Shown here: piece after piece, positions 27,643 through 33,212 of the stretch
Numbering within the stretch: the stretch's first letter is position 1
How the letters are laid out: each line of letters opens with the position of its first letter
IMG/VR virus record: IMGVR_UViG_2617270998_000002
DNA length: 33,212 nt
Source of the DNA: a virus
Lineage: Duplodnaviria > Heunggongvirae > Uroviricota > Caudoviricetes
Direction: 5' to 3' (one strand)
The notes under the pieces: generated by a model
The model's database searches: none
What the model was told of the DNA's origin: nothing
The model's input: the letters and a program-made list of their open reading frames with translations, nothing else
Translations under genes and position numbers: made by a program

Positions 27643-27719
27643 TGGCGCGCTGTACTGGATTCGAACCAGTGACCGATTGCTTAGAAGGCAATTGCTCTGT
27701 CCGGCTGAGCTAACAACGC
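27643..27719 (-). tRNA. tRNA-Arg (anticodon UCU)
   Basis: Minus strand GCGTTGTTAGCTCAGCCGGACAGAGCAATTGCCTTCTAAGCAATCGGTCACTGGTTCGAATCCAGTACAGCGCGCCA; anticodon loop CTTCTAA; T-loop GGTTCGAATCC; encoded CCA; resembles argU. Confidence 0.85.
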
Positions 27720-27752
27720 TGAATACCGATAATGGACCGCCATCGGGGACCC

Positions 27753-27762
27753 GCCCCCCCCC
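27753..27762. repeat. Homopolymeric C10 (G10 on the minus strand) tract between the two tRNA genes
   Basis: Plus strand ...ggggacccgCCCCCCCCCCgcacc...; ten consecutive C. Confidence 0.9.
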
Positions 27763-27824
27763 CGCACCAACAACCCTGTTATCGTGTCGTCTGCTCTTCC
27801 TGATAAGCTCATGGCGGTTTGTGA

Positions 27825-27900
27825 TGGTGGCCCTTGCTGGATTTGAACCAGCGACCTGGCGATTATGAGTCGCTCGCTCTCACCACTGAGCTAAAGGACC
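27825..27900 (-). tRNA. tRNA with CAU anticodon, Ile2 (lysidine) type, ileX/ileZ-like
   Basis: Minus strand GGTCCTTTAGCTCAGTGGTGAGAGCGAGCGACTCATAATCGCCAGGTCGCTGGTTCAAATCCAGCAAGGGCCACCA; anticodon loop CTCATAA; very similar to E. coli ileX as recalled; encoded CCA. Confidence 0.8.
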
Positions 27901-30896: not shown

Positions 30897-31010
30897 CAGA
30901 ATTCTTCCGGATAATTAGCTCTCCCCTTTAAGGGACCATCCCTCTTATCCCTGCGCGCTACTTAAGTATTTTTGATTCTATTCCGGCACCGTCCAGAACT
31001 TCAAACGCGT

Positions 31011-31041
31011 TGAAAATAAAAACAAAAACCCGCCGAAGCGG
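31011..31041 (-). terminator. Intrinsic terminator 3' of hok
   Basis: Minus strand CCCGC-ttcg-GCGGG followed by TTTTTGTTTTTATTTT; a 9-bp perfect stem GGCGAGGGA-gaaa-TCCCTCGCC lies immediately after the hok stop (31083-31104). Confidence 0.6.
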
Positions 31042-31112
31042 GTTAAGTGCGGGTGCGTTGAGGATGCCTGCCACATCAGAGGTGGCGAGGGATTTCTCCC
31101 TCGCCGGGTCTC

Positions 31113-31268
31113 TTACTCCTCAGGTTCGTAAGCTGTGAAGACAGCGACCTCCGTCTGGCCGGTTCGGATTCGTACCTCGCAGAGGTCTTTCCTCGTTACC
31201 AGTGCCGTCACTATGACGGTTAAACAGATGACGATCAGGGCGATTAACATCGCCTTTTGCTGCTTCAT
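31113..31268 (-). CDS. hokD: Hok/Gef-family type I toxin (HokD/RelF-like)
   Basis: MKQQKAMLIALIVICLTVIVTALVTRKDLCEVRIRTGQTEVAVFTAYEPEE (51 aa), which I recognise as HokD; AAGGAG ribosome binding site; the track ORF extends 19 codons upstream in frame (31325). Confidence 0.8.
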   Translation of the reverse strand: MKQQKAMLIALIVICLTVIVTALVTRKDLCEVRIRTGQTEVAVFTAYEPEE

Positions 31269-31450
31269 AGCCTGCTTCTCCTTGCCTTTCGGCACGTAAG
31301 AGGCTAACCTACATGTGTCTAGCATGAAATTGGCCTCAGATTAATGTTAAGCGTCTTGCAGGACGCGTAATGTTAACTGGGGCTTTTCTCTATCTGCCGT
31401 TGGTGTTCATGCCCGAGGCAGATAGCCTCAAGCACCCGCAGCAATTTTAC

Positions 31451-31558
31451 TTAACTCCCTCTACCTCGCCAATCAGAAAATCGCTCCATGAAAGCAACAA
31501 CAAGACAATAAATTACCAGCACAGCCACAATAGCCAACACACACGTCAGAGCCAACAC
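31451..31558 (-). CDS. Candidate small hydrophobic peptide (35 aa), not in ORF track
   Basis: GTG start 5 nt after AGGAGG; own translation (M)LALTCVLAIVAVLVIYCLVVAFMERFSDWRGRGS: one TM helix plus short basic tail, like small membrane toxins; lies between the SIR2-like gene and hok. Confidence 0.3.
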   Translation of the reverse strand: MLALTCVLAIVAVLVIYCLVVAFMERFSDWRGRGS

Positions 31559-31728
31559 GATAACCTCCTGTATTGGACGTATACCAATACTGATAAATAT
31601 GAGACTGCCTCTTCAATGATTCAATACAACTATTGGGTGTTCATCTAAAGAATGAAATGAAGGTAAAGTGTATATTTCAGCTCAGCGAAGTTAGAACCGT
31701 ATACTCTCGATACTAACTTCGCATTGTG

Positions 31729-32760
31729 CTACCAATTGATGAAGTCAGTGATGTTATCCAACCTGGTTACAGTAACTTCCCGTCCTAACAAATATTGCCA
31801 GTATGCCTCACGGTCATTTTGTTCACCTGCACCGCTCCACTCAATTACTCTTAAATGCTTAGAGGTTAGGTAAGGCCGAATAAGCAGGTTAAGGTGTTCA
31901 TCGAGGCCAGAATAACCAAACAGTATTATTTCTTCTGATTCAAATAATGCAAACTGCAAATAATCCCAGTACGTAGAAAGAACATTAGATGCTGCTATAA
32001 CTGACGGTTTCCTTTTTATATGCGTTAACACTATATGTTCGCTAGGCTCATCCCTGTCAACCGTAAGTTGAGAACGTGAAAGTTTTAAGACGGTCTCACC
32101 CTGATTAACAAATAGTGGTGAGCCATGCAAATGCAAATAATAACCAAACCTACGATTATATTTCCGTTCGAGCGCTTCGGCGGAAAATCCGTGGCCTAAC
32201 ATCCCATCAACCAGATACCCATCATACCCGCTGAATATATCATTATCTATGAATGAGTTGTATAATAATTTGTCATAGTTTAATGTCGCAATATGAGTGC
32301 GTGTATTTTTTACAAATTCCACTAGCGCATTTTCGAATCTTTGCGGCAACCCTTCACCGTAATTATGCAAACTAGTTGCAACTTTGTGGATATAAGTGGC
32401 GGTGATTTCGGGGAAGTTTAGTCCATCGTCAGTAAGCCAATGCTCGTTTCCTTCTCCAATTTGCGCAAGAGCCTTACAATATGTGATAGCTTGGTGAAGG
32501 GTATCCAACTCATGTTCCCCTGCCGGTGGACCTTGCCGCTGAAGACAACGTTCGATAAGTTGCTTATGGACATCGTTTAAGAAATTGGATCGATGCCAAA
32601 TTTCTGCCAACGCCCTGTCTAAGGAAAAATGAGCAGGATCTAAAGCCATACCAAGACCGTTGCCGAATATTATTAATTTTCGTGCCATATAGGAGGACTC
32701 ATGTTGGAATAATCTTGAGTAGCGTAACGCGATACGCCGCAGTTTGGAAGTAATATACAT
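31729..32760 (-). CDS. SIR2-like (sirtuin-fold, DHS-like NAD-binding) protein; candidate defence NADase
   Basis: Ordered motifs by eye: N-terminal Gly-rich KLIIFGNGLGMAL, TLNYDKLL (sirtuin TQNID/TTNYD-like), YYLHLHGSP (catalytic His context), C-terminal ILFGYSGLDEHL; AT-rich; alternative start at ATG 32688 (MARKLIIFG...). Confidence 0.6.
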   Translation of the reverse strand: MYITSKLRRIALRYSRLFQHESSYMARKLIIFGNGLGMALDPAHFSLDRALAEIWHRSNFLNDVHKQLIERCLQRQGPPAGEHELDTLHQAITYCKALAQIGEGNEHWLTDDGLNFPEITATYIHKVATSLHNYGEGLPQRFENALVEFVKNTRTHIATLNYDKLLYNSFIDNDIFSGYDGYLVDGMLGHGFSAEALERKYNRRFGYYLHLHGSPLFVNQGETVLKLSRSQLTVDRDEPSEHIVLTHIKRKPSVIAASNVLSTYWDYLQFALFESEEIILFGYSGLDEHLNLLIRPYLTSKHLRVIEWSGAGEQNDREAYWQYLLGREVTVTRLDNITDFINW

Positions 32761-32933: not shown

Positions 32934-33212
32934 TGGATTTGCCCCTATATTTCCAGACACCTGTTATCACTTAACCCATTACTGGCTTGCTGCCGTAGAT
33001 ATTCCCGTGGCGAGCGATAACCCAGTGCACTATGCGGATGCCATTCGTTATAATGCTCGAACGCCTCTGCAAGGTTCTTTGCTGCCGTTAACCCGTCTGG
33101 TTTGGGCATGACACTGATGTAGTCACGCTTTATCGTTTTCACGAAGCTCTCTGCTATGCCGTTACTCTCCGGACTCCGCACCGCCGTGCTCTTCGGTTCA
33201 AGCCCCAACATC
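32934..33212 (-). mobile_element. IS2 (IS3 family), right-end 279 bp; element continues beyond the window
   Basis: Plus strand from 32934 (TGGATTTGCCCCTATATTTCCAGACACCTGTTATCACTTAACCC...) is the reverse complement of the IS2 right terminus as I recall it; the InsD C-terminus is encoded on the minus strand. Confidence 0.85.
32945..33212 (-). CDS. insD: IS2 transposase OrfB (InsD), C-terminal part (truncated by window end)
   Basis: ORF ...[87 protein letters not shown], the IS3-family integrase-core C-terminus. Confidence 0.85.

What the first reader, a model, noticed from the sequence alone, without database searches (positions are those of the whole stretch)
31451..31558. Unannotated 35-aa hydrophobic peptide ORF with a strong ribosome binding site between the SIR2-like gene and hok
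A minus-strand GTG start sits 5 nt downstream of a perfect AGGAGG and encodes (M)LALTCVLAIVAVLVIYCLVVAFMERFSDWRGRGS: one transmembrane helix plus a short charged tail, the architecture of type I toxins and small membrane effectors (Ldr, TisB, Hok-like). It is below the 60-aa cut-off of the ORF track. It could be a second toxin, a membrane effector paired with the SIR2-like protein, or part of the hok regulatory leader.
Basis: seen in the sequence. Interest (0 to 1): 0.45.

Follow-up and report, generated by a model that had tools for sequence, protein, structure and literature searches.

The report
Conserved prophage membrane micro-protein beside hok
The 35-codon reading frame is very probably a real gene: a divergent copy of a small membrane protein that about a third of complete E. 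coli genomes carry just upstream of the hok toxin gene, with no known function and no sign of being a second toxin or a partner of the SIR2 gene.

Summary
The ORF is there exactly as described: GTG at 31558, AGGAGG 5 nt upstream, 35 codons, one hydrophobic helix. Chance does not explain it (0 of 300 simulated windows gave such an ORF). It belongs to a conserved family, normally 29-34 aa, core ALAIxAV(M/V)(A/G)(I/V)YCL...L(M)(D/E)R. The family sits directly upstream of the hok promoter in the nin region of Escherichia/Shigella lambdoid prophages and occurs in about 1,900 of 5,426 complete E. coli genomes.

The window copy has an 11-nt deletion between ATTG repeats. This removes the usual stop, adds the WRGRGS tail and runs the ORF over the hok -35 box.

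- Polymorphism is biased to synonymous and third-position changes (p about 1e-4).
- The Shine-Dalgarno sequence survives in diverged contexts.
- A homologue in O157:H7 Sakai (XECs145, now ECs_5710) gave strong ribosome footprints in a published screen.

The ORF lies outside the hok mRNA and does not overlap Sok. It is not homologous to Hok, and its mRNA is not unusually structured. SIR2 homologues outside this prophage slot lack it, and identical Hok proteins occur without it.

Best reading: a small inner-membrane protein of unknown function expressed in lysogens. It is a new member of an uncharacterised family and of modest interest.

The parts
31451..31558 (-). Small ORF: 35 codons plus TAA. 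It is a divergent allele of the 29-34 aa prophage membrane micro-protein family.
   Evidence: The invariant family residues A9, A12, V13, Y17, C18 and L19 are all kept.
31564..31569 (-). Shine-Dalgarno sequence AGGAGG, 5 nt before the GTG start.
   Evidence: A GGAG-type motif is kept in diverged upstream contexts of the family.
31596..31624 (-). Candidate sigma-70 promoter of the small ORF: TTGAAT (31624-31619), 17 nt, CATATT (31601-31596). Inferred, not mapped.
   Evidence: CATATT is present in 70 of 70 unique upstream sequences and a TTGxxx hexamer 17 nt upstream in 61 of 70, across 17 different spacers. It matches 8 of 12 consensus positions, below the scan threshold.
31559..31638 (-). Conserved upstream block. 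It marks the left boundary of the module shared with other phages, at about 31638.
   Evidence: Homology to mEp460, Evi, Tritos and E. coli prophages starts here. Sequence further upstream is cargo-specific.
31470..31473 (-). Junction of the allele-specific 11-nt deletion (ATTGATTTTAT lost between two ATTG repeats). It removes the family's usual TGA stop.
   Evidence: Alignment; ORF comparison.
31444..31472 (-). hok promoter: TTGGCG, 17 nt, TAAAAT. It is overlapped by the 3' end of this allele's ORF.
   Evidence: Its position fits the hok mRNA 5' end at 31437.
31263..31437 (-). hok mRNA 5' leader (region matching the Rfam 'sok' model RF01794).
   Evidence: 115 bits, E = 8e-27.
31317..31387 (+). 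Sok antisense RNA homologue. It does not overlap the small ORF.
   Evidence: 64 of 71 nt identical to the annotated sokW of phage 933W.
31113..31325 (-). mok reading frame, containing hok (31113-31268; 51 aa, PF01848).
31027..31044 (-). Intrinsic terminator of the hok transcript. It is the only terminator-like site between the SIR2 gene and the end of hok.

Best explanation
The ORF is a genuine protein-coding gene for a single-pass inner-membrane micro-protein. It belongs to an uncharacterised family confined to lambdoid prophages of Escherichia and Shigella. The family is normally 29 aa ('type 1') or 34 aa ('type 2', for example ECs_5710 of O157:H7 Sakai).

The gene sits at a fixed place in the nin region. 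It follows a variable cargo slot (here the SIR2-like gene) and abuts the promoter of a hokW/hokD-type hok/sok locus.

I infer that it is transcribed in the lysogen from its own modest sigma-70 promoter (TTGAAT-17-CATATT). After induction it would also be transcribed by read-through from the early rightward operon. With no terminator before hok, these transcripts would run on into hok.

Translation starts at GTG 31558 from an exposed AGGAGG. The product would insert as one helix, probably N-terminus out and C-terminus in, because the arginines lie after the helix. Like other small membrane proteins, it would act through helix-helix contacts with an unidentified membrane partner, not as a repressed toxin.

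The window copy is a diverged allele (18 of 87 nt differ from the consensus). An 11-nt slippage deletion replaced the stop and added six residues (WRGRGS).

Shown: the ORF and its signals, family conservation, selection signature, genomic linkage, and translation of a homologue. Inferred: the promoter, the read-through transcripts, the topology, non-toxicity and the mode of action.
For: (1) The ORF stays open in the same frame, and it keeps the same stop in nearly all loci. This holds in 5 annotated relatives, in more than 120 IMG/VR loci, and in Shigella flexneri and E. ruysiae.

(2) It is the only frame free of stops in all three peptide types.

(3) Segregating changes by codon position 1/2/3 are 17/16/40. 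Synonymous changes number 38 of 73 against about 30% expected (binomial p = 7e-5 and 1e-4).

(4) Type 1 and type 2 share A9, A12, V13, Y17, C18 and L19 at only 45-62% identity, and intermediates exist (P0070, P0078, P0010). The window allele keeps all invariant residues.

(5) The Shine-Dalgarno sequence is retained although upstream sequences diverge.

(6) Published ribosome profiling of O157:H7 Sakai lists the type 2 homologue as translated ORF XECs145. In LB the mRNA RPKM was 79, the footprint RPKM 346, their ratio 4.35 and coverage 0.99 (PMC5597208, S2 Table). RefSeq now annotates it as ECs_5710, directly upstream of mok/hok in prophage Sp6.

(7) The region is in 1,901 of 5,426 complete E. 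coli genomes.

(8) A promoter-like pair of hexamers is conserved across 17 different spacers.

(9) By chance, 0 of 300 simulated windows gave such an ORF.
Against: - No expression data exist for this allele or for any type 1 copy. The Ribo-seq evidence is for a type 2 homologue about 45% identical, and multi-copy prophage sequence could inflate its read counts.
- Pairwise pN/pS is only about 0.5 and does not single out the frame. For type 1 alone the synonymous excess is weak (p = 0.07).
- The sequences are closely related, so 'never disrupted' carries limited weight. One type 3 copy has a nonsense codon (L181). C-terminal frameshift variants exist, including the window allele itself.
- The proposed -35 box is replaced in 8 of 70 unique upstream sequences (one further sequence also lacks a TTG hexamer) and is deleted in L231.
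- No function, partner or topology was demonstrated. The family matches nothing in Pfam, NCBIfam, PHROGs, PADLOC or the PDB.
Confidence: 0.7

Rival explanations
1. Accessory component of the hok/sok cassette. The peptide, or its translation on read-through transcripts, modulates Hok. It could be a membrane-embedded antagonist or co-factor of Hok, or it could influence hok promoter use, hok mRNA folding or Sok transcription.
For: Peptide loci almost always have a hok leader directly downstream (103 of 114; the 11 exceptions are one prophage-remnant lineage cut just after the stop). In most type 1 loci the stop lies a fixed 42 nt from the hok +1. No terminator separates the two. The module boundary at about 31638 encloses both. 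The hokW study leaves open what de-represses HokW on induction (PMC8621323).
Against: The identical Hok protein occurs with type 1, with type 2, with only the unrelated type 3 peptide, and with no peptide at all (23 loci). About 36% of hok loci with this leader have neither peptide. Peptide type and Hok sequence show no co-variation beyond lineage. The canonical hok mRNA starts downstream of the ORF. There is no homology to Hok (hhalign probability 0.4%). The adjacency may only reflect a shared fixed position in the nin region.
Confidence: 0.15
2. An independent type I toxin: a membrane-depolarising peptide kept silent by its own antisense RNA.
For: The size (29-35 aa), single hydrophobic helix and charged C-terminal end resemble TisB, ZorO, DinQ, Ldr and Fst (comparison from established knowledge). 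The location is a prophage, next to another type I system.
Against: No antisense partner was found. No promoter-like site was found on the + strand across the ORF, though that scan also missed the Sok promoter. Sok ends 64 nt downstream of the peptide stop. Rfam has no other hit. The mRNA fold is ordinary (z = -0.79) and the Shine-Dalgarno sequence is not firmly sequestered. No covarying leader structure was found. The Sakai homologue is among the better-translated novel ORFs in exponentially growing cells (ratio 4.35), which is hard to reconcile with a potent toxin.
Confidence: 0.07
3. Chance or decaying ORF. The sequence is conserved for DNA-level reasons (upstream region of the hok promoter, recombination joint) and any peptide made has no function.
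For: Hydrophobic short ORFs are common in intergenic DNA. Pairwise pN/pS of about 0.5 is similar in some other frames. The C-terminus tolerates frameshifts, as in the window allele and in P0106. The taxonomic range is very narrow.
Against: There is an excess of third-position and synonymous changes. Invariant residues persist across types that are 45-62% identical. The Shine-Dalgarno sequence and start are conserved in diverged contexts. A homologue gives ribosome footprints. The ORF region diverges about 18% while staying open, whereas the adjacent hok leader is nearly identical. None of 300 simulations gave such an ORF.
Confidence: 0.06
4. Membrane effector or partner of the upstream SIR2-like (DUF4917/SIR2_2) protein in a two-gene defence system.
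For: The two genes are adjacent on the same strand with no terminator between them. Every exact copy of this SIR2 protein is followed by the identical 35-aa allele, including copies with a different hok leader downstream. An SIR2 copy of 88% identity is also followed by a family member, 70 nt downstream.
Against: The peptide family is in about 1,900 genomes, while the tested SIR2 3' end plus peptide junction is in 16. Other phages have different cargo upstream of the same peptide. SIR2 homologues of 78% and 73% identity in non-prophage contexts have no related or convincing downstream TM ORF. Homologues of this SIR2 occur in many genera, while the peptide was found only in Escherichia/Shigella. 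No PADLOC model matches the peptide.
Confidence: 0.02

Closest known systems
ECs_5710 (YP_009502606.1) of E. coli O157:H7 Sakai prophage Sp6, reported as translated intergenic ORF XECs145 by Hucker et al. 2017 (PMC5597208)
   Same: It is a homologous 34-aa single-helix peptide with the shared core ALAvxAVxxxYCLvvxLMDRL. It has the same strong Shine-Dalgarno sequence and the same position immediately upstream of the mok/hok promoter in the nin region, ahead of the DUF968, RusA and Q genes.
   Different: It is about 45% identical. It has an acidic five-residue N-terminal extension (MSDDIS...) and the normal stop. A palindrome lies between its stop and the hok promoter, and a second small ORF (type 3) sits in tandem upstream. 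The window allele has a GTG start, no extension, and a six-residue C-terminal addition caused by an 11-nt deletion.
29-aa 'hypothetical/membrane protein' entries of E. coli, Shigella and E. albertii (for example GCZ25347.1 = P0002, and P0005, P0010). The same ORF is unannotated in phages mEp460_ev081, Evi, Tritos and HannyBb.
   Same: Same gene, frame, start, Shine-Dalgarno sequence and neighbourhood. Protein identity is 55-66% and all invariant residues are shared.
   Different: These entries end at ...LSD with TGA 42 nt before the hok +1. The window allele reads on to 13 nt before the hok +1 and differs from the consensus at 18 of 87 nt.
Membrane type I toxins (Hok/Gef, TisB, ZorO, DinQ, Ldr, Fst)
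   Same: Small size, one hydrophobic helix and a prophage or mobile-element location. The ORF sits next to a real member of the class (hok).
   Different: There is no detectable homology to Hok. No overlapping antisense RNA and no structured, translationally locked mRNA were found. A homologue is freely translated in growing cells. Toxicity is untested.
Non-toxic bacterial small membrane proteins that modulate larger membrane proteins (AcrZ, MgtS, MgrB, KdpF, CydX; comparison from established knowledge)
   Same: They are 29-50 aa single-pass peptides, expressed in normally growing cells and conserved mainly in the helix. This is the class the ORF most resembles in behaviour.
   Different: There is no sequence relationship and no identified partner. 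The gene is prophage-borne and restricted to one genus.
'Type 3' small ORF upstream of hokW in 933W/Sp5 (MTWPEAFxxVGxxMAVxLVVYSICRWG)
   Same: It is a 27-aa hydrophobic ORF with a strong Shine-Dalgarno sequence. Its stop lies 41 nt before the same hok +1, so it occupies the analogous position.
   Different: It is not detectably homologous (hhalign probability 2%). It overlaps the stop of the upstream DUF551-type gene (ATGA) and is sometimes fused to that gene. It can occur in tandem with type 2, and it also occurs away from hok.

Membership tests
Type 1/2 prophage micro-protein family (ECs_5710 / XECs145-like) | A 29-34 aa peptide with one hydrophobic helix and the conserved residues A9, A12, V13, Y17, C18, L19, followed by (D/E)-R. 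| tested here: met
   In alignment A5 the window peptide keeps every invariant column. The profile search recovers 127 family members.
Type 1/2 prophage micro-protein family (ECs_5710 / XECs145-like) | A GGAG-type Shine-Dalgarno sequence 5-8 nt before the GTG or ATG start. | tested here: met
   AGGAGG, then 5 nt, then GTG. The same arrangement is seen in relatives.
Type 1/2 prophage micro-protein family (ECs_5710 / XECs145-like) | Position directly upstream of the promoter of a hokW/hokD-type hok locus, in the nin region of a lambdoid prophage. | tested here: met
Type 1/2 prophage micro-protein family (ECs_5710 / XECs145-like) | Stop codon about 42 nt before the hok +1, giving the C-terminus ...LSD or ...LGN. 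| tested here: not met
   The 11-nt deletion removes the stop. The ORF ends 13 nt before the hok +1 with an added WRGRGS. This is an allele-level difference; the core of the protein is intact.
Type 1/2 prophage micro-protein family (ECs_5710 / XECs145-like) | The ORF is translated in vivo. | not testable with these tools
   Translation is shown only for the Sakai type 2 homologue in published Ribo-seq.
Type I toxin-antitoxin toxin | A small hydrophobic membrane peptide. | tested here: met
Type I toxin-antitoxin toxin | A cognate antisense or trans-acting RNA antitoxin overlapping or adjoining the toxin mRNA. | tested here: inconclusive
   None was found. No + strand promoter-like site was detected (but that scan also misses the Sok promoter). 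Sok does not overlap the ORF. There is no Rfam hit.
Type I toxin-antitoxin toxin | A stable, highly structured mRNA whose translation is repressed during normal growth. | tested here: not met
   The fold z-score is -0.79. No covarying structure was found. The homologue has a ribosome-to-mRNA ratio of 4.35 in LB.
Type I toxin-antitoxin toxin | Growth arrest or killing on over-expression. | not testable with these tools
   This needs an experiment.
Hok/Gef family (PF01848) | A sequence match to the Hok_Gef profile, including the periplasmic C-terminal domain with its conserved Cys. | tested here: not met
   No Pfam hit at E up to 10.
hok mRNA regulatory leader (Rfam RF01794 region: tac, mok, Sok target) | The feature lies within the hok transcript. 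| tested here: not met
   The model match, and so the inferred 5' end, starts at 31437. The ORF spans 31558-31451.
SIR2-based defence system with a membrane effector | Conserved co-occurrence of the two genes across diverged homologues. | tested here: not met

The most novel reading that the evidence does not exclude
The micro-protein is a so far unrecognised, optional third protein component of prophage hok/sok cassettes. One form of this idea is a membrane-embedded modulator that tunes Hok insertion or oligomerisation. Another is that its promoter and translation feed read-through transcription into hok and against the convergent Sok promoter. Either would couple prophage state to Hok release, which could explain how HokW is de-repressed on induction.
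Probability: 0.12. Interest if true: 0.65.

Novelty: new member of a known kind. Interest (0 to 1): 0.35.

Why it matters
If the reading is right, about a third of complete E. coli genomes carry a small membrane protein gene that NCBI's annotation pipeline usually leaves out, right beside one of the best-studied toxin-antitoxin loci.

This has a practical consequence. Deletions or clones described as 'hok/sok' may or may not include this gene and its promoter. Transcripts from it would enter hok. Experiments on prophage hok loci, such as the hokW work in Sp5 where the unrelated type 3 ORF holds the same position, should control for the upstream small ORF.

The find also adds a well-supported case, with a selection signature and Ribo-seq support, to the catalogue of prophage micro-proteins. 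It does not by itself reveal a new mechanism.

Tried and rejected
- Pairwise Nei-Gojobori pN/pS between types. Values of about 0.5 were matched in some other frames, so this was not discriminating. I relied on within-type polymorphism instead.
- The overlapping Cys-rich frame (47-74 aa). Rejected: it is truncated to 23 aa in HannyBb, absent in types 2 and 3, has no Shine-Dalgarno sequence, and the third-position excess belongs to the peptide frame.
- The + strand 92-aa ORF (31370-31648) that gene callers sometimes pick. Rejected as spurious: it runs antisense to the hok leader and the peptide.
- Searches of Pfam, NCBIfam, PHROGs, PADLOC and PDB sequences. Only noise-level hits.
- hhalign against Hok and against the type 3 peptides. 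No relationship.
- RNAalifold on the leader. Weak energy (-10 kcal/mol) and little covariation.
- Helical periodicity of conservation. No clear 100-degree signal, so I make no claim of a conserved helix face.
- Transcription start site data for EDL933 (PMC10469882). The tables give coordinates only, and I could not place the locus in that genome.
- Supplements of the Enterobacteriaceae micro-proteome preprint (PMC11188072). No match to the peptides in the stored text.
- Full-text searches for the peptide strings, ECs_5710 and XECs145. No paper discusses them.
- The first protein search failed because the query was under 40 aa. It was repeated with an alignment led by a 51-aa extended ORF.

Full report
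**Observation.** Read on the minus strand, the window shows cAGGAGGttatcGTG: AGGAGG at 31569-31564, a 5-nt spacer and GTG at 31558. The ORF then runs to TAA at 31453-31451 and encodes MLALTCVLAIVAVLVIYCLVVAFMERFSDWRGRGS. It lies between a 343-aa SIR2_2-domain gene (31729-32760) and mok/hok (31113-31325). The window is the whole 33,212-bp contig JNMK01000032.1 of assembly GCA_000700305.1. It is a lambdoid prophage, and gene order on the minus strand is SIR2-like, small ORF, hok, rem, a 92-aa ORF, DUF968, RusA, Q, tRNAs, then lysis and morphogenesis genes. A Markov simulation gave AGGAGG + start + 25-60 codon ORFs about 1.2 times per window, but none of 300 simulations produced one with a membrane-helix-grade hydrophobic stretch. 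The other AGGAGG-plus-5-nt starts in the window belong to long ORFs (232-675 aa) in the part of the prophage that holds the morphogenesis genes.

**Relation to hok.** The Rfam model for the hok/sok leader matches 31437-31263 (115 bits), so the hok mRNA starts at 31437. The consensus scan finds the hok promoter as TTGGCG (31472-31467), 17 nt, TAAAAT (31449-31444). The small ORF therefore lies wholly upstream of the hok transcript. In this allele its last eight sense codons and stop cross the hok -35 box and spacer. The Sok homologue maps to 31317-31387 on the plus strand by identity to the annotated sokW of phage 933W (64 of 71 nt). It does not overlap the ORF. The only terminator-like site between the SIR2 gene and the end of hok is the hok terminator at 31044-31027.

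**A conserved family.** Blastn shows that window 31638-31300 is shared at 82-88% identity with many E. coli prophages and with phages mEp460_ev081, Evi, Tritos and HannyBb. Sequence upstream of 31638 is specific to the SIR2-bearing lineage.
- In all these relatives the same frame is open from the same Shine-Dalgarno sequence and GTG, but it ends earlier, giving the 29-aa peptide MLVLKCALAIAAVMAIYCLAVVLMDRLSD. Its TGA lies 42 nt before the hok +1.
- The window has lost 11 nt (ATTGATTTTAT) between two ATTG repeats. This removes that stop and appends WRGRGS.
- A DNA pattern scan of IMG/VR returned 119 loci, and all but one contig-end truncation keep the ORF.
- Anchoring on the hok 5' end instead revealed a second, clearly homologous form, 'type 2': MSDDISLAMEGALAVIAVVGVYCLVVFLMDRLGN. 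It also revealed an unrelated 27-aa hydrophobic ORF, 'type 3' (MTWPEAF..VYSICRWG), at the same position in 933W-like phages.
- A profile search of 5.8 billion proteins found 127 members, all from Escherichia, Shigella or E. albertii. They are named only 'hypothetical' or 'membrane protein', none has a Pfam domain, and some are intermediate between types 1 and 2.
- Among 185,579 species representatives, only Shigella flexneri, E. ruysiae and three short metagenome-bin contigs carry it.
- The region occurs in 1,901 of 5,426 complete E. coli genomes, usually with nothing annotated. The window's allele is in 16. The exact 35-aa sequence is absent from a 15-billion-protein collection.

**Is it coding?**
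- Only this frame is free of stops in all three types.
- Within types, segregating changes fall 17/16/40 on codon positions 1/2/3. Of 73 changes, 38 are synonymous against about 30% expected (p = 7e-5 and p = 1e-4). The signal is clear for types 2 and 3 and weak for type 1 alone (p = 0.07). My retrieval pattern had fixed several third positions in type 1, which works against detecting synonymous change.
- Pairwise pN/pS of about 0.5 was not frame-specific.
- Types 1 and 2 are 45-62% identical yet share A9, A12, V13, Y17, C18 and L19 and the (D/E)R after the helix. The window allele keeps all of them.
- The Shine-Dalgarno sequence persists where the upstream sequence has diverged.
- Hucker et al. 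(PLoS One 2017, PMC5597208) list the Sakai type 2 copy as translated ORF XECs145. In LB the mRNA RPKM was 79.1, the footprint RPKM 346.1, their ratio 4.35 and coverage 0.99. It was also translated in BHI and nearly silent under combined stress.
- RefSeq now annotates the 34-aa form as ECs_5710, directly upstream of mok/hok in prophage Sp6, in the same gene order as the window.

I conclude that the family is protein-coding and that the window copy is an intact, if C-terminally altered, member.

**Expression signals.** Upstream of the ORF, a CATATT hexamer is present in all 70 unique family sequences. A TTGxxx hexamer (mostly TTGAAT) lies exactly 17 nt further up in 61 of them, across 17 different spacers. 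In the window these are at 31601-31596 and 31624-31619. This is a candidate sigma-70 promoter matching 8 of 12 consensus positions, below the threshold of the scan. It is an inference. The -35 box is replaced in one sub-lineage and deleted in L231, where the ORF sits 70 nt after an SIR2 gene. Because there is no terminator, transcripts through the ORF should continue into hok.

- *Second toxin.* I found no antisense partner, no unusual mRNA structure (z = -0.79) and no covarying leader fold. The homologue is freely translated in growing cells. Toxicity itself is untested.
- *SIR2 partner.* All exact copies of this SIR2 carry the 35-aa allele, and an 88%-identical SIR2 in the same slot is followed by a normal 29-aa allele. 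However, the same slot holds other cargo in other phages. SIR2 homologues of 78% and 73% identity outside prophages lack the peptide. SIR2 homologues span many genera, while the peptide does not. The SIR2 gene therefore looks like cargo inserted next to a pre-existing peptide-hok module.
- *hok leader.* The ORF is upstream of the hok +1.

**Link to hok.** The association is one-sided. Of 114 peptide loci, 103 have the hok leader immediately downstream. The other 11 are one prophage remnant cut just after the stop, next to a host gene. Of hok loci with this leader, about 40% have type 1/2, 23% have only type 3 and 36% have neither. The identical Hok protein is found in all of these situations. 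The peptide is not homologous to Hok. A functional tie to hok is therefore possible but not indicated, and shared position in the nin region explains the linkage equally well.

**Verdict.** The finding is a real but ordinary kind of thing: a small, single-pass, probably non-toxic membrane protein of a lambdoid prophage. It belongs to a genus-restricted family that is widespread, usually unannotated and functionally uncharacterised. The window holds an unusual allele created by an 11-nt deletion. The mechanism I commit to is expression in the lysogen and after induction, insertion as one helix with the arginine-bearing C-terminus in the cytoplasm, and action through intramembrane contacts with an unknown partner. 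That mechanism is inference. Only gene status, conservation, linkage and translation of a homologue rest on data.

Noticed in passing
L007:1396-1479 (phage 933W); L224:3345-3428 (Sakai Sp6): A separate 27-aa hydrophobic ORF family ('type 3', MTWPEAFxxVGxxMAVxLVVYSICRWG) has a strong Shine-Dalgarno sequence and its stop lies 41 nt before the hokW +1 in 933W/Sp5-type phages. Its ATG overlaps the stop of the upstream DUF551/Ea22-type gene (ATGA). In some Shigella genomes the same sequence forms the C-terminus of 121-aa DUF551 proteins. It is present in 93 GenBank phages.
   Followed up: partly
L224:3345-3600 (Sakai prophage Sp6): A type 3-like ORF and the type 2 ORF lie in tandem, followed by the palindrome ATATGGGAATTCCCATAT. 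The motif GGGTAAAAACGnTTnGCnGG is duplicated on both sides of the type 2 gene, as if that gene had been inserted as a cassette between the type 3 ORF and the hok promoter.
   Followed up: no
window 31729-32760 (-), with flanks to about 31638: The SIR2_2/DUF4917-like gene sits in a variable cargo slot between the DUF977 gene and the peptide-hok module. Other phages carry an acetyltransferase (Evi) or a 1.35-kb reverse-strand gene (mEp460, Tritos) in that slot. It gives weak PADLOC matches to Aga_SIR2 and PDC-S21 (E 1e-5 to 1e-7). Homologues occur across Gammaproteobacteria, and tblastn found none in GenBank phages.
   Followed up: partly
L127, L153, L173 and similar IMG/VR loci, about 200-260 nt upstream of hok: In some hok loci the type 3 ORF is followed by an intrinsic terminator (AAAAACCCCGGATTGACGGTCCGGGGTTTTT), about 150 nt of other sequence and a different hok promoter region.
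   Followed up: no
window 31370-31648 (+): A 92-aa plus-strand ORF runs antisense to the peptide and the hok leader. Gene callers chose it instead of the small ORF in the public assembly and in phage HannyBb. It is very likely a spurious call.
   Followed up: partly
window 31023-31104 (-): A sub-threshold Rfam match to the Salmonella prophage sRNA IsrK (25.7 bits, gathering score 50, E = 0.009) covers the 3' end and terminator of the hok transcript. A 38-aa ORF (30958-31074) in the same place is annotated as hypothetical in mEp460 and HannyBb.
   Followed up: no
window 27643-27900 (-): tRNA-Arg(TCT) and tRNA-Met genes lie just downstream of the Q antiterminator gene. This is the arrangement seen ahead of the stx genes in Stx phages (comparison from general knowledge).
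   Followed up: no
window 32945-33211 (-); L002:4569-5639: The contig ends in a transposase fragment (rve_3), so the immunity and replication region seen upstream in L225 is missing here. In the closest complete genomes (for example KSC1031) an ISEsa1-family transposase pseudogene is annotated from about 108 nt beyond the stretch that matches window 31300-31760, in the region where hok lies in the window, and no hok gene is annotated there.
   Followed up: no
L227-L229 (Logan contigs): The identical SIR2 gene and 35-aa allele are joined to a different hok leader variant (GGGTGCTTGAGGTTGTCTGTCTCAGGCATCCGC...). This indicates a recombination joint within the first 12-15 nt of the hok transcript.
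   Followed up: no
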